Origin: an uncultured Acidobacteriota bacterium
GTDB taxonomy: Bacteria; Acidobacteriota; Thermoanaerobaculia; UBA5066; Gp7-AA6
DNA length: 64,000 bases
NCBI GenBank assembly: GCA_963829925.1
Contig: CAWHKQ010000015.1
Span: forward strand, 354,025 to 418,024
Reading direction: 5' to 3'
Shown here: positions 3,523 through 12,858 of the stretch, one piece after another
Layout of the letters: each line of letters begins with the position of its first letter
How positions within the stretch are numbered: position 1 is the first letter of the stretch
Notes under the pieces: model-generated
The model's database searches: none
The model's input: only the letters and a program-made list of their open reading frames with translations
Told to the model about the DNA's origin: nothing
Made by a program: the position numbers and the translations under genes

Positions 3523-4321
3523 TCAGTGTCCCAGCATCAGGGTGTCCTGGCCGGCGGGGCGAGCGCTGCCCGGGAAATAGCCGGCCGACATCCAGATGAC
3601 CCGCAGCCCCGCCGCGAAGATCATCGCCTCGAAGAGCTCACGTCCGAAGGCCACGGCCGCCGATGGCCGCGAGCGAAGGCGCCAGCGAACGGGACGGCCG
3701 TCCGAGAACGGGAAGGCGCGCTCGACCTCCGGGAGGCGCGGGCCGTTCTCGTCGTACAGAAACGCGGTCACCACGGCCCCGCGTCCCGGCCGGAGAACGC
3801 GGCGGATCTCGGCCAGGTAGTGGCGCGCGTCCGCCTCGAGCAGATGCGTGAAGACGGACTTCGCCAGGACGAGATCGGCCTGGCCCTCGTCGAGCGGGAA
3901 ACGATAGGTGGACGCGGCGCCCGGCGCCCGGTCCCCAGGCCGAAACGACGTCGGCATGCTCGAACCGCAGGCGCGGATCGCCTGCGTGACTTGTCCTCGC
4001 CCAGCGGATCGAGGCCGCGTGCACGTCGAACCCGATGTAACGCCCCGCCGGGCCCAGGCGCCGCGCGAGCTCGGGGACCATCGCGCCCGGTCCGCAGCCG
4101 ACGTCCAGGACCGTGTCGCCGGCGCGGACGAGCGCCAGCCGATCCAGGAACTCGGCGGTCTCGCGGGCCGCGCTCTCGAATGCGGCGACCGGCCCCGTGT
4201 GCCGGCGCAGCCACAGCGGCGGAAGATGCTCGCGGCCCGTGGCGCGCAGCCAGAGCCGGTCCAACGGGCTCGCGAGCCGGAGCGCGGCGGTACGCGCGCC
4301 ACGGAGGGCGTCGGCAATCAC
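3523..4321 (-). CDS. class I SAM-dependent methyltransferase (one frameshift near 3935)
   Basis: The SAM-binding motif DTVLDVGCGPGAMVPELARRLGPAGRYIGFD is in one frame. ADLVLAKSVFTHLLEADARHYLAEIRRVLRPGRGAVVTAF is in the next. The GTG start overlaps the stop of the upstream GT-C gene (GTGA). Confidence 0.75.
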
Positions 4322-5562
4322 CGGCGCCACGCCGCGAAGACCCCGTAGAGGATCAGGATCGGGTCCCAGTAGGGGATCCGGTAACGCCAGACGACCTGAA
4401 GCGCGACGTGAACGAGCATGCTGACGACGAGGACGGCCACGCAGAACGCGGCGACGCCCCGGCGCGGGGATCGGCGCAGACCCAGGGCGGCCAGCACGTA
4501 CAGGAGAACGTAGAGGACCCCGATTCCCCATACGACGGCCGCACCCCAGTACCAGGGCGTCGGATACGGCCGCACCCAGTGCCAGGCTTTTCGCGCGAAG
4601 AGGCGCAGGCTTCCGGCGGGATCGGCCCGGATCTCGTCGATCGCGAGTCGGGCAAACGCCGCCGAGCGGCGGCCGGGCGAGACCGGGCCATTCGCCTCGA
4701 TGCGCGCGAGACGGGCACGCAGGTCCAGGTCGAAGTCGTCCAGCCAGCGGACGTATTCCTGCCGGCTGCGCACCTCGTAGAAGCTCCGGGTCCAGCCGGA
4801 GTTGCCGGCGTACAGGCTCACGCCGCCCGCGTCGCTGACGGGGAGAAGCTCGTGGAACCGGAGCGCGTTGCGCAGCGTCCACGGGGCGAGCGACAGCAGG
4901 AACCCGAGGAGAGCCGCGCCCGCGAGCTTTGCTCCGGTACGACGCGGCTGGCGCCGGTCGAGCAATGGCGCCGCCAGCAGCGGAGCCAGTGCCAGCGCGG
5001 AAGATCGCGTCAGAGCCGCCAGGCCCAGCATCGCTCCCGCCGCCAGGGCGAGGCGAGCGGACGGTCGGTCGGAGGCGCCCAGCAGGAAGAGCCCTGCCAG
5101 CAGCAGGAAGAGAAGGAAGAGCGGCTCGCTCTGGACGTCGGTCGAGAGGAGCACCAGGCTCGGGTGCAGCGCGGCGGCAGCGCCCGTGGCGATCGCGACC
5201 CCCCGATGGCGGAAGACTCGGGCGGAGAGAAGCGCCAGCAGAACCGCCGCGAGAGCTCCGAGCAAGCCGTTGGCGATCTTCGCGGCGGGGATGCATTCGG
5301 TCCGGCCGAGCGTCGCGACGACCAGGAAGAGGGGGTAGGCCGGCGGCCGGAAGAAGTACGGCTCCGTGCGATCGGGGTACTTTCCGTGCTCCGCCAGCTC
5401 CGTGGCCGCGTAGAGGTAGCGGGACGCGTCGCCGAATCGGAGCGTCGAGAACCCGACGGCGGCGGTCGCCCCGAGACGTACCACGAGCGCGAGCAGAAAG
5501 ATGGCTGCGACGGCGTTGCGCCCCAGGCGGGGAACGTCGGGCTGCAGGTCTCCGGCCGTCAT
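4318..5562 (-). CDS. polytopic GT-C fold glycosyltransferase, PMT_2/ArnT-like (copy 1)
   Basis: Intact ORF starting at MTAGDLQPD. It has many hydrophobic spans. The first-loop motif RFGDASRYLYAATELAEHGKYP...YFFRPPAYPLFL resembles ArnT/PMT family GT39/GT83 proteins. ATGA overlap with copy 2. Confidence 0.6.
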   Translation of the reverse strand: MTAGDLQPDVPRLGRNAVAAIFLLALVVRLGATAAVGFSTLRFGDASRYLYAATELAEHGKYPDRTEPYFFRPPAYPLFLVVATLGRTECIPAAKIANGLLGALAAVLLALLSARVFRHRGVAIATGAAAALHPSLVLLSTDVQSEPLFLLFLLLAGLFLLGASDRPSARLALAAGAMLGLAALTRSSALALAPLLAAPLLDRRQPRRTGAKLAGAALLGFLLSLAPWTLRNALRFHELLPVSDAGGVSLYAGNSGWTRSFYEVRSRQEYVRWLDDFDLDLRARLARIEANGPVSPGRRSAAFARLAIDEIRADPAGSLRLFARKAWHWVRPYPTPWYWGAAVVWGIGVLYVLLYVLAALGLRRSPRRGVAAFCVAVLVVSMLVHVALQVVWRYRIPYWDPILILYGVFAAWRR

Positions 5563-6770
5563 GGCAGCGCGGACGCTGCGTTTGCTCGCCGCCGCAGCAG
5601 GACCGCGGCGCCGGAGGACGCGTAGAGGATCAGCACCGGGTCCCAGTAGACGGACCGATACCTCCAGCTCGTCTCGAGCACGACGTGAAGAAGCATCGTC
5701 ACCGCGAGAAACAGCAGGCAGAAGGCTCGACCCCCGCGGCGTTCGGCCGTCGCCAGACCCACGATGGCGCACGCGGCCAGCGCCGTGAAGTACAGCCCGA
5801 GGATCACGACGGCGGAACGGGGCCAGAATCGCGGGTCCGGATACGGGCGAAGCCAGTCCCAGCTCTTCCACGCGAGGAGGCGCAGAGTCCCCCGCGGGTT
5901 GGCCCGGCGCTCCGCCAGCGCGGCGGAGAACAGCGCGCGCGAGAGGCGGCCGGGGGAGCTCCGCACCTCGGCGGGCAGGGCCGCGATGCGCTCGCGCCTC
6001 GCGCGCTCGAGCTCCGCGGAAGCTGTTTCGAGGTCCTCCCGGCTCTTCGCCTTCGCCATGCCGATCGCCGCTTCGGAGTTCCTTCCGTAGAACAGGTATC
6101 CGGCGCCGTCGTTGACGAGGATCACCTCGCGGAACTCGAGAAGGTTGCGCGCCGTCCAGGGCGCCAGCGCCGCTCCGAACCCGAGCAGCGCGGAGAAGGC
6201 GACGTGCGCGCCGGCGCGGAGGGGGTGGCGGCGGTCCCGCAGAGGAGCCAGCAGCAGCGGGGCGAGCACGAGGGCGGAGGAACGCGTCAGGGCCGCGAGC
6301 GCCAGGAAGACGCCGGCGAAGAGGGCCAGGTTCGACGAGGGCCGGTCGGTCGACGCGAGGAGAAGGTATCCGGCGCACAGCAGCAGGACGAGAAAGAGCG
6401 GCTCGGATTGAAGGTCCGCGCTCGCCAGGAGGAAGGGCGGGTGAAAGGCCGCCAGAATGCCCGCCGCGACGGCTACCGAACGGCGCCGGAAGAGTCGGGC
6501 CGCGAGCGCGGCGACCAGGAGCGCGGCGAGCGAACCGAGAACGGCATTGGCGACCTTCGCGGCCGCGATCCGCTCCGGATGCCCGAGAGTGGCCGCGACC
6601 AGAAAGGCCGGGTAGCCGGGCGGGCGAAACAGGAATTCCTCGGTGCGGCGCGGGTAGTGCCCGGTCTCGGCCAGCGCGCGCGCGGCGAAGAGGTACGCAG
6701 GCGCGTCGGCGAACCGGACCGTCGAGAAGCCGACGGCCGCCGTCGCGGCGAGCCGCGCGGCGAGCGCCAC
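5559..6770 (-). CDS. polytopic GT-C fold glycosyltransferase, PMT_2/ArnT-like (copy 2, tandem paralog)
   Basis: Colinear with copy 1 (RFADAPAYLFAARALAETGHYP...FLFRPPGYPAFL ... WRYRSVYWDPVLILY). The frame is open up to the E2 stop at 6844, so the exact start is uncertain. Confidence 0.6.
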   Translation of the reverse strand: MALAARLAATAAVGFSTVRFADAPAYLFAARALAETGHYPRRTEEFLFRPPGYPAFLVAATLGHPERIAAAKVANAVLGSLAALLVAALAARLFRRRSVAVAAGILAAFHPPFLLASADLQSEPLFLVLLLCAGYLLLASTDRPSSNLALFAGVFLALAALTRSSALVLAPLLLAPLRDRRHPLRAGAHVAFSALLGFGAALAPWTARNLLEFREVILVNDGAGYLFYGRNSEAAIGMAKAKSREDLETASAELERARRERIAALPAEVRSSPGRLSRALFSAALAERRANPRGTLRLLAWKSWDWLRPYPDPRFWPRSAVVILGLYFTALAACAIVGLATAERRGGRAFCLLFLAVTMLLHVVLETSWRYRSVYWDPVLILYASSGAAVLLRRRANAASALP

Positions 6771-6843: not shown

Positions 6844-8333
6844 CTAACCGAGATCGAACTCTCCGGCTTCGAGCGTCTTCTTGACGCTGGACATGAACCG
6901 GTCGGCGTCCGCGCCGTCGACCAGGCGGTGGTCGAACGAGAGCGCGAGATATCCGACCGTGCGGATGCCGAGCGCGTCCTGGCCGTGGTCGTCGGCGACG
7001 ACGACCGGCCGCTTCTCGATCGTCCCGACGCCGAGGATCGCGACCTGAGGCTGCGGGATGATCGGCGTGCCGAAGAGCGAGCCGAAGACTCCCGGATTGG
7101 TGACCGTGAAGGTCCCGCCCTGGATCTCCTCGGGCTTCAGGCGCTTGGTCCGCGCCCTCTCGGCCAGGTCCTGCGTGGCTCGGGCGAGGCCCAGGATCGA
7201 CTTCTCGTCCGCGTTCTTGATCACCGGGACGATCAGGCCCCAGTCGAGCGCCACCGCCATCCCCAGGTGGATGTCGCGGTGATACACGATGTTCTCCCCG
7301 TCGATCGAGGCGTTGACCTGCGGGAACTCGCGCAGCGCCTGGATCGCGGCGCGGAAGATGAACGGGAGGTACGTGAGCTTGACGCCGTTCTTCTCGAGGA
7401 AGGCGTCCTTGTGCTTCGCCCGGAGCCGGGCGATGTTGGTGTAGTCCACCTGAAAGACGGTCGTCACGTGCGCCGACGTGCGCTTCGAGAGGATCATGTT
7501 CTCGGCCGTGATCCGCCGGATCTTGGTCATCGCGACGACCTCGTCGCGCTCCGTGACGGGGATGGCCGGCCGCGGCGGCGGCGGGGCTTCGGCGGGCTCG
7601 GCGCGGCCGGGCACCTCCGCGGGAGCGGCGGAAGAGCGTGACGGCGCGGGGCCAGCGACCTTGCGGTTCTCGAGGTAGGAGAGGACGTCGTTCTTGGTGA
7701 CCCGGTTGTGGATGCCGGTGCCCTCGACCTCACCGATCTCGATCGAGTGCTCCTGGGCGATCTTCCGGACGAGAGGCGAGGAGCGCCGGCGAATCCGCTC
7801 CTCGATCGATTCGACCTGGCCGCCCCCCGAGCCCTCGGCGGGCGCGGTGGCAGGCAGGGCCGGGGCGGGCGTCGGCCGGGTCGGGGGAGCGGGGGCGGGC
7901 GCGGCCGACGCGGCGGGTGCAGCGGCCGCGGGCGCGGGCGCCGGGGTGGCCGGCTTCGATTCGGGTTTCGGGGCGCGGGCGCGGGCTCGGGCTGGGGAGC
8001 CTTCTGGGCCGCGGGGGCGGGCGCCGCTGCCGCCGCGGGCGCTGCCGGTGCCGAGGCTTCGGGCGCCGGCGCCCCTTCGGCAGCCGGCTTTTCGCCGGCC
8101 TCGCCGATCACGCCGACGACCGTGTTGATCGGCACGGTCGTGCCTTCGGCGGCCTTGATCTCGAGGAGCGTGCCGGCCACGGGCGACGGGATCTCGGCGT
8201 CCACCTTGTCCGTCGAGATCTCGAAGATCGGCTCATCGCGCTTGATCGTGTCGCCGACCTTCTTGAGCCACTTCGTGATGGTTCCCTCGGCGATCGATTC
8301 CCCCATCTGGGGCATGATGATTTCAGTCGGCAT
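6844..8333 (-). CDS. 2-oxoacid dehydrogenase E2, dihydrolipoyl acyltransferase (one frameshift near 7980)
   Basis: Lipoyl domain MPTEIIMPQMGESIAEGTITKWLKKVGD...EISTDKVDAEIPSP. An Ala/Pro linker follows. The E3-binding domain SPLVRKIAQEHSIEIGEVEGTGIHNRVTKNDV and the catalytic domain ...LSFDHRLVDGADADRF are in a second frame. The shift falls in GGGG at 7980-7983. GGAGGAGG lies upstream of the ATG. Confidence 0.9.
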
Positions 8334-8452
8334 CGATCCTCCTCCCTCGCACCGAACAGCATAGGGCAAAGCGGTCGAATCGAGAAGCACGCACCGTAGC
8401 CGACCTGCGCCGTCTTGATCACTGCGCCCTTTCGCGATATACAGGCGCGTCA

Positions 8453-11400
8453 ATGGCGAGGGGCGCGGGTGGGCGCCTCCGATCTCATTCGATATTCAGG
8501 AGGTTGAGATGGCTGCGGATCCAGTCCTGCGCTCCGTGTGACCCTTGCCCGGCGCCGCGGCGATCCTGGGGTTTCCTCTTGCGCTCTGCGGGGATCGCCC
8601 TCGCCGCCCTCGCCGCCCTCGCCCCGCCCGGCCGCGGCCAGACAGAGCCCGTTGCCGGCCAGAACGTGAACATGGTTTCCGGCACCCAGTTCCCGGGCGG
8701 CGATCCCTTCCTCCAGCGCCAGAATGAACCGTCGCTCGCCGTTTCGTCGCGCAACCCGCTGCATCTGCTTGCCGGCGCCAACGATTATCGCACCGTGGAC
8801 CTGCCGGTTTCGGACACGGTCCCGGGGTCGCTGGCAGGCGACGCCTGGCTCGGCGTGTTCAAGTCCTTCGACGGCGCCCAGTCCTGGCAGAGCACGCTGC
8901 TTCCCGGTTTCCCCCAGGACCAGTCCCCGGAGGGCCTCGCTTCGCCCCTGAAGGCCTACAACGCGGCGGCCGATCCGACGGTTCGCGCCGGGACGAGCGG
9001 CCTCCTCTACTTCAGCGGCATCGCCTTCAACCGCGGCACGAACAACGGCGCGGTCTTCGTGGCGCGGTATCTCGACGCCAACCAGAAGGAAAACGGCGAC
9101 GCGGCGCTCGGGAAGGACACGATCAAATACGTCTCGACCGTCGTGGTCGACACCGGAACCTCCGGCCAGTTCATCGACAAGCCCTGGATCGCGGTGGACA
9201 TTCCGCGCGCGGGCGCCGCGATGTGCACGTTCAGCCCCTTCGGGACCCCGCAGAGCTTTCCGGCCGGAAACGTCTACCTGGTCTGGAGCCGATTCACCGG
9301 CAGCACGAGCACCAAGATCATGTTCTCACGTTCGCTCGACTGCGGGAAGACGTGGTCGAACCCTTTCAAGCTCTCGGAGTCGAACTCGATCAATCAGGGA
9401 ACGAACATGGCGATCGACCCGGCCTCCGGCGCGATCTACGTCACCTGGCGCCGGTTCGCGGCCTCGAGCCAGCCGGACGCGATCCTGATCGCGAAGTCGA
9501 CGGATTTCGGGAAGACTTTCCCGTCCCGAAACACGACGACCGTCGCGACGATCGCCCCCTTCGATCAGGGCACCACCCCGACGCAATTTCGGACGAATGC
9601 GCTGCCCACGATCGCCGTTTCGGTCGACGCCTCGGGCGCCAGCCGCGTCCACGTGGCCTGGGCGCAGCGCAACGCCTCGACGGGGGACGCTCAAATCGTG
9701 ATGTCGACGTCGTCGAGCGGCGCGACCTGGGGGACGCCGGTGGCGGTCGACACCGGGGCGATGACCGACGACTTCGGTCACGCGTTCTCCCGGGGCCATC
9801 AGTTCATGCCGCAGCTGACCTTCGTGGCCGGGCGTCTCGTGCTCGTCTACTACGACCAGCGGCTCGATCACACGCTCGGCTTCCACATCCCGAACAACCC
9901 GTTCGCTCCGGACCCGGGATTCGGGCCGGACCCGCAGGGGCGTTTCTACCTCGTGCGGCGCGATCCGAAAGGGCGAGCTGCCGGCCCATCCCGAGCAGGT
10001 CTTCACGCTTCAGATCGACGACGCGACGCTGACCACCCGCCGGCACACGGTGGACCTGCGCGTCGCCCGAGCCTTCGCGGGTGCCGCGCCCGACTTCACG
10101 TCCGCCACCGTCTCGCAGTACCGCTTCGGCCTCACGGCGGCCGACACGGGGCTGCCGACCGGGCTCACACAGCTGCAGTTCAACGCCCCGAACCTGCCGC
10201 TCTTCTCGCAGGGGACGATTCCGTTCCTGGGGGACTACATCGACGTCGGCGGGGCAGAACTTCAAGGCGAACGGCACGGGCGGCTGGGCTTTCAATACCT
10301 CCGCCTCGAGCCCGCTGATCGCGTACGCCACCTGGACCGACAACCGCGACGTGAAACCGCCGATGGACGGCAACTGGGCGAACTACACGGCGACGGGCCC
10401 GGTGCACCAGAGCGTGCTCGACCCGGCGCACCAGACTCCGCCCTGCGTCAACGGGCAGGAGGGCATGCGCAATCAAAACGTCTACAGCAGTCGGATCACC
10501 GAGGGGCTGGCCGTCGGATCGCCGCAGAACGTCAAGCCACTCTCGGCCACGCTCCAGCGCTCGTTCGTGGTGACGCTGCAGAACCTCACGGGCCAGCAGC
10601 GCACGTTTCGCCTGACGGTCACCCAGCCCTCGGGGGGACAGGCCTCGTTCCTGCAGACCACCTCCCAGACAACGCTCGACGTCACGATCGCCGCGCGCTC
10701 GGGCGCCGCCCGGCCCGTGTTCGCGAAGTCTCCGAACGTGGCCGCCAGCTTCACGGTCAACGTGGCCGAGGTCGGCGGGCCGCTTTCGGGGTCGATCGTC
10801 ATGAACCCCGAGGGCTCGGTCTCGCCGCTCGCGCAGCCCGACGGCACGACGGCCGACATCGGGACGCTCGAGATCTACACTCCCGGCTTCCAGGTCTGGA
10901 ATCCGGCCAACCCGAATCCGTTTCTGAACATCTCCAACCCGAACCAGGTCCTCAACATCTCGAACCTCAACATTTCCAACGCCGAGCCGGCGATCCTGAA
11001 CATCTCCAACCTCAACATCTCGAACCTGAACATCTCGAACCTCAACATCTCCAATCCGGACCCGGCGGCCCTGAACATCTCGAACCTCAATATCTCGAAT
11101 ACGACGGCCGCGAACCTGAACATCTCGAACCTGAACATTTCGAACCTGAATATCTCGAACGTCCCCGAGAGCGACTCGACGTACGCCGTGGTCAACTCCG
11201 GGAACACGGCGCACTCCTACCGGATCGCGCTCTACGGCAACAACCCGTACGGCAACGTGCCGCTCCAGGTCATCGTGACGAAAAACTCCACGACGCCTGC
11301 GAGCGTGAGCTGCGTCCTTCTGAACCAGCCCCAGAGCGTCGTCGTGTCGAACGTCAACGACGCGTTGATCTCGCCCGACCTCGCTTCGGCCACGAACCCG

Positions 11401-12858
11401 AACATTTCCGACTCGAGCGTCTCGAACTCGACGATGGCCCTGGCGCCCGGCGAGACGGCATTCGTGACCCTGCGCGCGGCACTGACGCCGGAGCAGATGG
11501 CGGAGTTGACGCGCAGCCTGACGCCGGTCGTCACCGCGCACGGCACCAACACGAACGGATCCGCGCCGGACTTCGCGGCGCTCCTCTCGATCCAGACGGC
11601 GGGCGGGACGACGCTTCCCGCGGCCCTGGTCGGGACTTCCTACAGCACCACCCTGCAGGCGCTCGGCGGCAAGCCGCCCTTGGCGTGGACGCTCGCCCCG
11701 GGAAGCACGCTGCCCACGGGGCTGACGCTCTCGACGGGCGGAGTGATCTCCGGCACTCCCTCCGCCTCGGGAAGCTTCACGTTCACCGTGAAGGTGTCCG
11801 ACTCGACCCCGGGGACGCCGCAGACGGCCACCCAGCCGTTCAGCCTTTCGGTCAACGGCCGGGCGACGGCGACCTCCATCGCCCTGGGGACGAATCCCGT
11901 CGTCGTGGGCCAGACGTCGTCCGTGACGGTCACGGTGACCGACACGCAGGGCAGCGGGGCTCCGGCGAGCCCGACCGGGACCATCGCCCTGACCGGTTCC
12001 GGGCTATCGGCGTCGAGTTGCGTCCTGGCGCCCACGGTGGCCGGGGCTTCGGCCTGCGCGGTGACGGTGACTCCGACCTCCGCCGGGACGTCCGTCATCG
12101 GTGCGAGCTTCTCCGCGACGTCGGTGCACCTGCTGAGCGGCGCGACGACCGGTCTGACGGTGAACCCGGCCGACACGGCGACCACCATCGCGTCCAGCCT
12201 GAATCCGTCCGCCCTCGGCCAATCGGTCACCTTCACGGCGACCGTGACGTCCGTCGCGGGCGTTCCGGCGGGAACCGTGACCTTCCGCGACGGGTCGGCG
12301 ACGCTCGGCACGTCGGCGCTCACCGGCGGCGCCGCGAGCTTGGCCACGGCGGCGCTCTCGGCCGGTCCGCATTCGATCACGGCGGTCTACGGAGGGAGCA
12401 CGAGCTTCGCCGGCAGCACTTCGGGCGTCCTGAGCCAGACGGTGACGGTCCCGGTTTTCTACACGTTCACGGGCTTCCTGTCGCCGATGGCGCCGGCGGG
12501 GACGCTGGCGGCGCCGAGCTTCTCGGGGAGCGCCAACTACGGGTCGGCGACGCCGGTCAAGTGGAAGCTCCAGGACCCGGCGGGCAACTTCCTCTCCGAC
12601 CTCTCCACGACACAGCTGCTTCAGGCCGTCGCCTACACCGGCGGGACCTGCTCCGGCCAGGCGACCGGCCAGGCGTACGTTCTCTACAAGCCGACGGTCG
12701 GCGCAACGGGCGGGAGCACCTTCCGGTACGACTCGGGCATCAACCAGTTCATCTTCAACTGGGACACGTCCTACGTCGCGGGCCCCGGCTGTTACGAGCT
12801 CGAGCTGCAGTTGAACGACGGCAGCGCGATCAAGGCGACGATCGAGAGGCTCCAGTAG
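8453..12858 (+). CDS. giant secreted multidomain protein: BNR/Asp-box propeller, pentapeptide-like LNISN tract, He_PIG-like and Big-like Ig domains, and a PxKF-like C-terminal domain (2 frameshifts; start uncertain)
   Basis: Four Asp-boxes are present (SFDGAQSW, SLDCGKTW, STDFGKTF, SSSGATWG). Frame changes fall at ~9970 and in GGGG at 10251-10254. Ig-like segments include LTLSTGGVISGTPSASGSFTFTVKVSD and SLNPSALGQSVTFTATVTS...TVTFRDGSATLG...GPHSITAVYGGSTSFAGS. The end reads GSATPVKWKLQD...CYELELQLNDGSAIKATIERLQ. A hydrophobic leader GIALAALAALAPPGRGQ is present. The best RBS-ATG pair (8498-8511) is in another frame. Confidence 0.7.
10924..11160 (+). repeat. in-frame 15-bp tandem repeat (CTSAACATYTCSAAC) encoding 12 LNISN units
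   Basis: Read directly from the sequence. The LNISN units occur in blocks of 1, 2, 4, 2 and 3. The last three spacers are 5 residues long (AEPAI, PDPAA, TTAAN), so the pentad register is kept from the third unit onward. Confidence 0.9.

What the first reader, a model, noticed from the sequence alone, without database searches (positions are those of the whole stretch)
10924..11160. Twelve in-frame LNISN pentapeptides encoded by a 15-bp tandem repeat
The DNA is a near-perfect 15-bp tandem repeat (CTSAACATYTCSAAC). It encodes LNISN in blocks of 1, 2, 4, 2 and 3. The last three spacers are 5 residues long (AEPAI, PDPAA, TTAAN), so a strict 5-residue register is maintained over ~55 residues. Read as SNLNI, the unit fits the pentapeptide-repeat consensus A(D/N)LXX. 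That predicts about 3-4 turns of a right-handed quadrilateral beta-helix inside an extracellular protein.

Two further points are speculative:
- Each unit contains an N-X-S sequon (NIS), giving 12 potential N-glycosylation-type sites. Two GT-C glycosyltransferase genes lie 4-6 kb away.
- At the DNA level, a 15-bp repeat could change copy number in-frame by slippage.
Basis: partly seen in the sequence, partly recalled or inferred. Interest (0 to 1): 0.6.

Follow-up and report, generated by a model that had tools for sequence, protein, structure and literature searches.

The report
Conserved pentapeptide-repeat module in secreted protein
The twelve LNISN units are real and form a fixed-length, very strongly conserved repeat module between two Ig-like domains of a large secreted acidobacterial protein; it reads like a divergent pentapeptide-repeat beta-helix, though the fold is unproven, and nothing supports slippage variation or a conserved glycosylation role.

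Summary
There are 12 exact LNISN units at 10924-11160 (+), in blocks of 1, 2, 4, 2 and 3, and none elsewhere in the window (0 expected by chance).

The tract lies in a ~1440-aa secreted protein: BNR-like propeller, Ig-like domains, tract, more Ig-like domains, PxKF end. In this assembly two 1-base insertions split the gene.

The tract is one flavour of a family-wide module in Acidobacteriota, x-[N/D/A/S]-[I/V/L]-[S/A/G/T]-N. The last Asn and the central aliphatic residue are near-invariant.

Sequence comparison aligns L-N-I-S-N with A-(N/D)-L-S-x of solved pentapeptide-repeat beta-helices.

The fold evidence is mixed:
- PF00805 does not score on this protein, but it does on two relatives' tracts.
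- AlphaFold2 with a deep alignment left the tract unstructured.
- AlphaFold2 on the tract alone gave a beta-rich model (pLDDT 77). That is a known AF2 bias for repeats.

Copy number is fixed in close relatives, and all 60 unit residues are identical where the rest of the protein is 57-88% identical.

The N-X-S sequon is absent from 39 of 102 relatives. The GT-C neighbours are PMT_2-type, sit in another operon, and are missing at one relative's locus.

Verdict: a divergent variant of a known repeat class, of modest interest.

The parts
10924..11160 (+). LNISN pentapeptide tract: 12 exact units in blocks of 1, 2, 4, 2, 3, with spacers PNQV, AEPAI, PDPAA, TTAAN
   Evidence: Conserved unit by unit in relatives.
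10888..11178 (+). Tract with its short caps (FQVWNPANPNPF ... VPESDS). This is the segment folded alone.
   Evidence: AF2: mean pLDDT 77.4, beta along residues 12-91. Foldseek: no significant match.
10507..10893 (+). Ig-like (MG/thigh-like) beta-sandwich domain directly before the tract
   Evidence: AF2, pLDDT >90. Foldseek (integrin thigh/calf, CEP192 SPD-2, complement MG). Weak FixG_C Ig-like hit.
11170..11580 (+). Ig-like beta-sandwich domain directly after the tract. It starts with the conserved S-D-x-T-Y-x-V-x-N-x-G-N-T motif.
   Evidence: AF2, pLDDT 82-95. Alignment.
8453..9970 (+). N-terminal gene piece (frame 2): signal-peptide-like start and BNR/Asp-box propeller-like region
   Evidence: Weak sialidase/BNR similarity.
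9969..10252 (+). Middle gene piece (frame 0), lying between two single-base insertions at about 9968 and about 10250
   Evidence: tblastn. DNA alignment to the intact orthologue. A contig of run X3 lacks one base at 10250.
10249..12858 (+). C-terminal gene piece (frame 1). It carries the tract, He_PIG-like and Big_3_5 Ig-like domains (12193-12447) and a PxKF domain (12472-12843). The stop is at 12856-12858.

Best explanation
The LNISN tract is a structural protein module, not a hypervariable or modification-driven repeat.

It is the local flavour of a family-wide pentad, x-[N/D/A/S]-[I/V/L]-[S/A/G/T]-N. The module is about 14-18 pentads long and sits between two Ig-like beta-sandwich domains of a ~1440-aa secreted protein of Thermoanaerobaculia and other Acidobacteriota. 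That protein also has a BNR-like propeller, further Ig-like domains and a PxKF end.

Most likely the tract folds as a short, divergent pentapeptide-repeat (Rfr-like) beta-solenoid of roughly 3.5 coils:
- Leu (i-2) and Ile (i) would point inward.
- The invariant last Asn (i+2) would sit at each turn as an Asn ladder.
- Asn and Ser would cover the faces.

Such a module would act as a rigid spacer or flat interaction surface between the enzyme-like head and the Ig-like stalk.

Shown here: the repeat, its register, its extreme conservation, its fixed copy number, and its sequence likeness to solved pentapeptide-repeat proteins. Inferred: the fold, the Asn-ladder role and the spacer or surface function.
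For: **Sequence likeness and register**
- phmmer of the tract against PDB: 9 of the 10 hits with E < 0.001 are pentapeptide-repeat beta-helices (designed beta1 proteins 4yfo/4yc5 and variants, Np275-276 2j8k); the tenth is a putative adhesin (3pet). Further pentapeptide-repeat proteins (3du1, 6omx, 2o6w) follow at non-significant E of 0.2-7. The best E-value is 2e-6.
- These alignments have a consistent register, L=A, N=N/D, I=L, S=S.
- LNISN fits 4 of 5 positions of the 2019 consensus quoted in PMC8145042.

**Relatives' annotation**
- Homologous tracts of two relatives pass the PF00805 gathering score: P0061 (TNISN) at 36.3 bits and P0091 (ADIVN) at 30.5 bits.
- JGI names three relatives 'YjbI with pentapeptide repeats'.

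**Conservation**
- Across 74 aligned family members, the Asn ending each pentad is invariant or more than 90% conserved at 10 successive pentads.
- The central residue is always I, V or L (T in one protein) across about 30 unit flavours.
- In 11 LNISN-type orthologues all 60 unit residues are identical, while the rest of the protein is 57-88% identical. The chance of this at the background rate is 6e-4 down to 2e-15. That is the opposite of what a disordered linker would show.

**Structure prediction**
- AF2 on the tract alone, with a gapless alignment, gives mean pLDDT 77.4, pTM 0.67, and beta along the whole tract.
- Weak Foldseek neighbours are almost all beta-solenoids, including the SV2 luminal pentapeptide domain.
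- The flanks are confidently Ig-like.
Against: - AF2 on the 376-aa segment with a 74-sequence family alignment left the tract at pLDDT 31-44 with no secondary structure, while both flanks scored above 90.
- The five tract-only models range from 77 to 46.
- AF2 is documented to build confident but unrealistic beta-solenoids from near-perfect repeats (PMC11795689).
- Foldseek finds no significant match; the best E is 0.9.
- PF00805 does not score on this protein even at E <= 10.
- In many relatives the i-2 position is Pro or Gln (PNISN, PDVSN, PAIAN, QNISN). These residues are not in the published consensus and are hard to place in a tight core.
- Some relatives have 4-residue spacers (P0014, P0016, the LNIGN clade).
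- The strict consensus runs for only 4 units at a stretch, against the '8 contiguous repeats' criterion.
Confidence: 0.5

Rival explanations
1. The tract is a flexible or semi-rigid linker with no stable fold: a string of repeated local turns (Asn-Pro / Asx-type turns in the P-containing flavours). It would space the propeller head from the Ig-like stalk, comparable to other turn-rich repeat linkers.
For: - AF2 with the deep alignment gives pLDDT 31-44 and no secondary structure for the tract, between two confident domains.
- Position 1 of the pentad varies freely (P, Q, L, I, T, A, G), and P-flavoured tracts hit Extensin_1 below threshold.
- Spacers of 4 residues are tolerated.
- PF00805 is silent on this protein.
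- The tract-only beta model may be the known AF2 repeat artefact.
Against: - Linkers usually evolve faster than the domains they join. Here all 60 unit residues are identical in orthologues whose remainder is only 57-88% identical.
- The last Asn and the central aliphatic residue are kept across the phylum.
- Total length is held to about 14-18 pentads.
- A hydrophobic residue in every pentad (two in LNISN) is unusual for a soluble disordered linker.
Confidence: 0.3
2. The tract is structured but is not an Rfr-type four-sided helix. It might be a beta-solenoid of another coil length, or a fold that forms only in an oligomer or on a ligand or surface.
For: - The tract-only model's weak Foldseek neighbours include many non-Rfr solenoids: SufB/D, ice-binding DUF3494 proteins, FapC, bactofilin and hemolysin A. 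TM-scores are only 0.2-0.4.
- Spacer spacing (25 and 15 residues here; 30 and 20 in the QNISN clade) is not a multiple of the 20-residue Rfr coil.
- Ile, not Leu or Phe, is at the centre of the pentad.
Against: - The only significant sequence matches to solved structures are Rfr-type proteins, apart from one putative adhesin.
- Two relatives' tracts pass PF00805.
- No data here bear on oligomers.
Confidence: 0.1
3. The tract exists as an array of N-X-S sequons. It would be multiply N-glycosylated, with the nearby GT-C enzymes or an STT3-like enzyme doing the work.
For: - Each LNISN unit holds N-I-S, and the protein has a signal-peptide-like start.
- Two PMT_2 GT-C genes lie at 4318-6770 on the minus strand.
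- A GT-C gene with an STT3 N-terminal match of 31.8 bits lies on another contig.
- 63 of 102 relatives' units do contain an N-X-S/T.
Against: - 39 of 102 relatives have units without any sequon: LNIGN, PAIAN, QDIAN, PDVSN, PDLAN, ADIVN and others.
- The invariant residues are Asn-5 and the aliphatic residue 3, not the sequon's Asn-2 and Ser-4.
- PMT_2 enzymes are O-mannosyl- or lipid-directed transferases, not N-oligosaccharyltransferases (established knowledge of the family).
- The two PMT_2 genes sit on the other strand, in a string with methyltransferase, lipA and E2 genes, and are missing next to the orthologue in L003.
- The STT3-like gene shows no WWDYG motif in any forward frame.
- There is no acidic residue at -2, which bacterial PglB needs (own knowledge).
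Confidence: 0.05
4. The 15-bp repeat is a contingency locus. Slipped-strand mispairing would change the unit number in frame between cells or strains, varying the length of the surface protein.
For: - The units are tandem 15-bp repeats.
- Rare relatives differ by -1 (P0014), +1 (P0040) or about -5 units (P0051). The QNISN clade has one more unit in each block.
- Each clade has its own homogenised unit flavour, so unit turnover has occurred.
Against: - 23 of 29 LNISN-type proteins, down to 57% identity elsewhere, have exactly the same 1, 2, 4, 2, 3 layout.
- Contigs from runs X1 and X4 cover 10866-11397 with no indel, including a variant strain with 13 substitutions and no gap.
- Unit-specific synonymous codons (for example ATT in unit 3 and AAT ending unit 7) are shared by orthologous units in other genomes.
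- Synonymous variety limits perfect DNA identity between neighbouring units.
Confidence: 0.03

Closest known systems
Pentapeptide repeat proteins (Pfam PF00805; Rfr fold: Np275/276, Rfr23/32, HetL, MfpA, Qnr)
   Same: - Five-residue period.
- Asn/Asp before a central aliphatic residue, a small polar residue after it, and Asn/Gly-type residue at i+2.
- The best sequence matches to solved structures are mainly these proteins, in a consistent register.
- Some homologous tracts pass PF00805.
   Different: - The centre is Ile/Val rather than Leu/Phe.
- Position i-2 is Leu here, and Pro or Gln in many relatives, rather than Ala.
- The last Asn is invariant.
- The module is only about 14-16 pentads, broken by D-P-A-type spacers.
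- It is embedded between Ig-like domains of a 1440-aa secreted protein, not a stand-alone cytoplasmic protein.
- PF00805 does not score on this protein, and the fold is not established.
Luminal domain of SV2A/SV2C (a pentapeptide-repeat beta-helix inside a larger eukaryotic membrane protein, N-glycosylated)
   Same: - A short pentapeptide-type helix used as an extracytoplasmic module of a larger protein.
- It appears among the weak Foldseek neighbours of the tract model (5jlv_D, TM about 0.42-0.44).
   Different: - The match is not significant (E about 5).
- It is eukaryotic, with unrelated surroundings.
- Glycosylation of the present tract is untested, and the sequon is not conserved.
Secreted YjbI-type pentapeptide repeat proteins of bacteria (e.g. 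Caulobacter YjbI/PerA, PMC12864828 and bioRxiv 10.1101/2023.03.30.534887, abstracts seen)
   Same: - Pentapeptide-type repeats exported to the envelope or surface.
- JGI applies the YjbI (COG1357) label to three relatives.
   Different: - Those are essentially all-repeat proteins with a role in outer-membrane permeability.
- Here the repeat is a roughly 80-residue insert in a multidomain BNR/Ig protein.
- No functional link was tested.
Asparagine ladders of leucine-rich repeats and pectate-lyase-type beta-helices
   Same: One Asn is kept at the same place in every repeat. That is the hallmark of a turn-stabilising ladder in solenoids (established knowledge). Two LRR proteins (four entries) appear as very weak sequence hits.
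   Different: The repeat lengths differ (20-30 residues per LRR). This is an analogy only and was not tested structurally.

Membership tests
Pentapeptide repeat proteins (PF00805, Rfr fold) | Scores above the Pfam PF00805 gathering threshold | tested here: not met
   No PF00805 hit for the 925-aa ORF, the 93-aa piece or the 97-aa tract at E up to 1-10. Homologous tracts of P0061 (36.3 bits) and P0091 (30.5 bits) do pass the 20.2-bit cut-off.
Pentapeptide repeat proteins (PF00805, Rfr fold) | At least eight contiguous pentapeptides of the consensus (PMC8145042) | tested here: inconclusive
   14 pentads are in register (ORF aa 291-360). The longest uninterrupted run of LNISN is 4. The spacers AEPAI and PDPAA have Pro at the central position.
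Pentapeptide repeat proteins (PF00805, Rfr fold) | Unit fits (A/C/S/V/T/L/I)(D/N/S/K/E/I/R)(L/F)(S/T/R/E/Q/K/V/D)(G/D/E/N/R/Q/K) | tested here: inconclusive
L-N-I-S-N fits 4 of 5 positions; the centre is Ile, not Leu/Phe. The phmmer register agrees with L-N-I-S-N.
Pentapeptide repeat proteins (PF00805, Rfr fold) | Right-handed four-sided beta-helix, four pentads per coil | tested here: inconclusive
   AF2 with the deep alignment gives tract pLDDT 31-44 and no structure. AF2 on the tract alone gives beta throughout at pLDDT 77, with models ranging 46-77. The best Foldseek E is 0.9. AF2 has a known repeat bias. Coordinates could not be inspected.
Bacterial N-linked glycosylation substrate (PglB/STT3-type) | Sequon conserved in homologues, with an acidic residue at -2 for PglB | tested here: not met
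   39 of 102 relatives lack N-X-S/T in their unit. Position -2 of the sequon Asn is Asn, not Asp/Glu. The PglB requirement comes from own knowledge.
Bacterial N-linked glycosylation substrate (PglB/STT3-type) | An oligosaccharyltransferase with a WWDYG motif encoded in the genome, ideally nearby | tested here: inconclusive
   The neighbours are PMT_2, not STT3. One STT3-N-like gene lies on contig C10 (31.8 bits). It is frame-broken and has no WWDYG in any forward frame. Marker-gene completeness is scored at only 57%.
Bacterial N-linked glycosylation substrate (PglB/STT3-type) | Glycan detected on the protein | not testable with these tools
   This needs mass spectrometry of the native protein.
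Slippage-driven contingency repeat | Unit number differs among close strains or reads | tested here: not met
   No indel in contigs of 4 runs over the tract. 23 of 29 LNISN-type proteins have an identical layout. Orthologous units share synonymous codons. Raw-read depth was low, so rare variants are not excluded.

The most novel reading that the evidence does not exclude
The x-N-[I/V/L]-s-N tract defines an unrecognised extracellular class of pentapeptide solenoid. It would have an invariant corner Asn ladder and faces lined with Asn and Ser, and would be used by soil Acidobacteriota as a flat binding surface for polysaccharide, mineral or ice-like water. In the N-I-S flavours it might instead be a dense array of glycan attachment sites served by a non-canonical STT3-like GT-C enzyme. 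In either case it would not be a passive spacer.
Probability: 0.12. Interest if true: 0.55.

Novelty: new variant of a known kind. Interest (0 to 1): 0.3.

Why it matters
Pentapeptide-repeat proteins are abundant, but few have a known role, and almost all studied cases are stand-alone cytoplasmic proteins.

Here a short, divergent pentapeptide module is fixed in length. It is conserved more strictly than the rest of its protein, and it is built into a large secreted BNR/Ig protein found patchily across Acidobacteriota.

If the module folds as proposed, it would be a clear natural example of a pentapeptide helix used as an extracellular building block. Its many unit flavours (LNISN, QNISN, PDVSN, PAIAN, ADIVN and others) would form a ready-made series for asking which pentad positions the fold really needs.

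It is also a useful caution for structure prediction: two AlphaFold2 runs on the same tract gave opposite answers.

In practical terms the finding is a modest annotation gain, not a new principle.

Tried and rejected
- **Pfam scan of the whole 74-protein alignment.** I scanned ten tract flavours instead.
- **Foldseek of the wide model.** It identified only the flanking Ig-like domains.
- **Foldseek of the tract model.** It gave nothing significant, so fold membership could not be settled.
- **Search for an N-oligosaccharyltransferase.**
  - PF02516 in the own genome gave one hit on contig C10.
  - The listed ORFs there had no Pfam hit.
  - The matching frame hits STT3 N-terminal, and weakly TMEM260 and PMT_2.
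  - No WWDYG was found.
  - I rejected this as evidence for N-glycosylation.
Rejected, because relatives replace that 'central' Leu with Pro, Gln, Thr, Ala or Gly while keeping the Ile/Val/Leu two residues later.
- **Recent gene conversion among units as the cause of the 60/60 identity.** Rejected, because unit-specific synonymous codons are shared between orthologues.
- **The lower synonymous divergence in the units** (0.03 against 0.17, and 0.20 against 0.39). I attribute this to strong codon preference for AAC/ATC in a 67-72% G+C genome. It was not pursued.
- **Own-genome paralogues.** None; the gene is single copy.
- **Literature search for PxKF, Thermoanaerobaculia and pentapeptide repeats.** Nothing on this family.
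Full report
**1. The observation**

The degenerate 15-mer CTSAAYATYTCSAAY occurs 12 times in the 64-kb window. All 12 are on the + strand between 10924 and 10160+1000 (that is, 10924-11160), and 100 shuffles give none.

In the frame of ORF 10081-12858 the units read LNISN at ORF residues 282, 291, 296, 306, 311, 316, 321, 331, 336, 346, 351 and 356. That is blocks of 1, 2, 4, 2 and 3. The spacers are PNQV (4 residues) and AEPAI, PDPAA and TTAAN (5 residues each).

Tandem Repeats Finder sees the array, but period 15 scores only 64% matches because of the spacers; period 75 scores 86%. From the second unit onward, 14 pentads (70 residues) are in one register.

**2. The gene**

The tract lies in a 925-aa ORF that is the C-terminal two-thirds of a larger gene. 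tblastn with the intact relative P0003 (1438 aa) covers three pieces:
- 8516-9973 in one frame
- 9969-10280 in the next
- 10249-12855 in the third

Identity is 82-86%. DNA alignment to the syntenic orthologue in L002 shows that the window has one extra base near 9968 (an A/G run) and one near 10250 (a G run), plus an in-frame 3-base insertion. A short contig from run X3 lacks one base at 10250.

The genome is 3.8 Mb in only 16 contigs, yet scores 57% complete. The neighbouring E2 gene is also split across two frames, whereas L002 has a single 488-aa E2. I therefore think the frameshifts are more likely assembly indels than a real pseudogene. This is not proven.

**3. Architecture**

- The N-terminus has a signal-peptide-like start.
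- It also has weak BNR/Asp-box sialidase-like similarity (BNR_2 E 9e-4; PDB BNR/sialidase E about 1e-3).
- The C-terminal part has Big_3_5 (E 7e-20) and a PxKF domain (NF038114, E 2.5e-14).
- AlphaFold2 on ORF residues 135-510 gives two confident beta-sandwich domains (pLDDT above 90) on either side of the tract.
- Foldseek matches those domains to integrin thigh/calf, CEP192 SPD-2 and complement MG domains, all Ig-like.

**4. The family**

The database search returned about 300 relatives at E <= 0.001. The full-length ones are mostly 1400-1600 aa. Where they carry a name, they come from Thermoanaerobaculia, Pyrinomonadaceae and other Acidobacteriota.

In a sample of 301 genomes of the phylum, 9 carry the module, and the same-genus representative does not. 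The own genome has one copy.

Every relative with the region has a pentapeptide tract at the same place, but with its own unit. Examples are LNISN, QNISN, LNIGN, LSISN, INISN, TNISN, PNISN, PNVSN, PDVSN, PDLAN, PAIAN, QDIAN, ADIVN and GSLTN.

- The common pattern is x-[N/D/A/S]-[I/V/L]-[S/A/G/T]-N.
- In the 74-sequence alignment, the Asn that ends each pentad is invariant or more than 90% conserved at ten successive pentads.
- Tract length is held to about 14-18 pentads in most members, with a conserved central landmark: PDPAA here, PDIAT/PDIAD in distant clades.

**5. Register and likeness to pentapeptide-repeat proteins**

phmmer of the tract against all PDB sequences returns mainly pentapeptide-repeat beta-helices at the top: the designed beta1 series and Np275-276 fill 9 of the 10 hits with E < 0.001 (best E 2e-6), the tenth being a putative adhesin (3pet). 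HetL/All3740, Alr5209 and Rfr23 follow at non-significant E of 0.2-7. The alignments put L on A, N on N/D, I on L and S on S.

Relatives replace the leading Leu with Pro, Gln, Thr, Ala or Gly but never lose the Ile/Val/Leu. The Ile is therefore the central residue.

Pfam PF00805 does not score on the window's protein or tract. It does pass its threshold on the homologous tracts of P0061 and P0091. LNIGN tracts hit Pentapeptide_2, and Pro-containing flavours hit Extensin_1 below threshold.

**6. Fold**

The two AlphaFold2 runs disagree.
- With the family-wide alignment and both flanks, the tract has pLDDT 31-44 and no secondary structure.
- With the tract alone and a gapless alignment of 14 close relatives, the best model has mean pLDDT 77.4, pTM 0.67, and beta along residues 12-91. 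The five models range from 77 to 46.

Foldseek of the tract-only model finds nothing significant. The weak list is dominated by beta-solenoids, including the SV2 luminal pentapeptide domain.

Pratt et al. show that AF2 builds confident but unrealistic beta-solenoids from perfect repeats: 32 of 78 random repeat sequences behaved this way (PMC11795689). The second model is therefore weak evidence, and the fold remains open.

**7. Selection and stability**

In 11 LNISN-type orthologues all 60 unit residues are identical to the window, while the remaining about 800 aligned residues are 57-88% identical. At the background rate, the chance of 60 out of 60 is 6e-4 down to 2e-15.

The units are not being homogenised at present. 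Unit-specific synonymous codons are shared by the orthologous units in L002 and L003, for example ATT in unit 3 and AAT ending unit 7.

Twenty-three of 29 LNISN-type proteins have exactly the 1, 2, 4, 2, 3 layout. The six exceptions are:
- one point substitution
- one single-residue insertion
- one truncated fragment
- three true changes in unit number (-1, +1, about -5)

Contigs from runs X1 and X4 span 10866-11397 without indels. One is a variant strain with 13 substitutions and no gap.

Over deeper time, each clade carries its own homogenised unit, and the QNISN clade has one more unit in each block. Unit turnover has therefore happened, but rarely. This pattern fits a tightly constrained structural element. 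It fits poorly with a disordered linker or a contingency repeat.

**8. Glycosylation**

N-I-S is a sequon, but 39 of 102 tract-bearing relatives have units with no N-X-S/T. The invariant positions are not the sequon's.

The two GT-C genes (4318-6378 and 5559-6770, minus strand) are PMT_2-type. They sit in a string with a methyltransferase, lipoyl synthase and E2 (same order in L002). The orthologous locus L003 lacks them.

A search for STT3 found one frame-broken GT-C gene on another contig. It has an STT3-N match of about 31 bits and no WWDYG motif. Glycosylation of this flavour is not excluded, but it cannot be the conserved reason for the module.

**9. Reading**

Most likely (about 0.5), the tract is a short, divergent pentapeptide-type beta-solenoid. 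A corner Asn ladder would stabilise it, and it would serve as a rigid spacer or flat surface between two Ig-like domains of a secreted protein.

The rivals, with my estimates:
- a turn-rich flexible linker, about 0.3
- another solenoid geometry or an oligomer-dependent fold, about 0.1
- a glycosylation array, about 0.05
- a slippage locus, about 0.03

**10. Novelty**

Pentapeptide repeats are a known class, and some relatives are already auto-labelled as such. What is new:
- the variant consensus (Ile/Val centre, invariant terminal Asn, free i-2 position)
- the fixed short length
- the placement inside an extracellular BNR/Ig protein

I rate it a new variant of a known kind, of modest interest.

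Noticed in passing
window 9966-9972 and 10247-10254: Two single extra bases in A/G and G runs split the ~1440-aa gene into three frames. The syntenic orthologue in L002 is intact (1537 aa), and a contig of run X3 lacks one base at 10250. This is probably assembly indel error, but a real pseudogene is not excluded.
   Followed up: partly
window 6844-8453 (-): The 2-oxoacid dehydrogenase E2 gene appears as two overlapping ORFs in different frames. The catalytic domain is at 6844-7614. The lipoyl domain is at 7527-8453, followed by nonsense. No E3-binding domain is called. L002 has one 488-aa ORF with all three domains. This is another sign of indels in this assembly.
   Followed up: partly
own genome G000 (3.82 Mb, 16 contigs): Completeness is scored at only 57% despite very few contigs and 0.06% contamination. 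This is consistent with many frame-breaking indels hiding marker genes.
   Followed up: no
L004 (G000 contig C10, 243500-248000): A GT-C gene has an STT3 N-terminal match (31.8 bits) and a DSDSAYH-type first-loop motif. It reads through at least three frames in this assembly and has PWSLGH where WWDYG would be expected.
   Followed up: partly
window 12830-12858; L002 14586-14614: The 3' end of the gene overlaps the 3' end of the convergent Ser/Thr kinase-TPR gene by 29 bases. The same overlap is present in L002. In L003 the two genes are 40 bases apart.
   Followed up: no
relatives P0002-P0119: Each clade has its own homogenised pentad: LNISN, QNISN, LNIGN, PDVSN, PAIAN, QDIAN, ADIVN, GSLTN and others. 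All keep a central odd pentad (PDPAA, PDIAT, PDIAD). This is concerted evolution of the units under a fixed overall length.
   Followed up: partly
search of 301 genomes of the phylum: The module is patchy. It occurs in 9 of 301 genomes spread over several families, and it is absent from the 98%-complete representative of the same genus.
   Followed up: no
L003 versus window and L002: Gene order around the locus differs. In L003 the LiaF-like/LytS/LytTR module lies upstream of the gene and the two PMT_2 genes are gone (a 121-aa ORF remains). In the window and L002 that module lies beyond the kinase.
   Followed up: no
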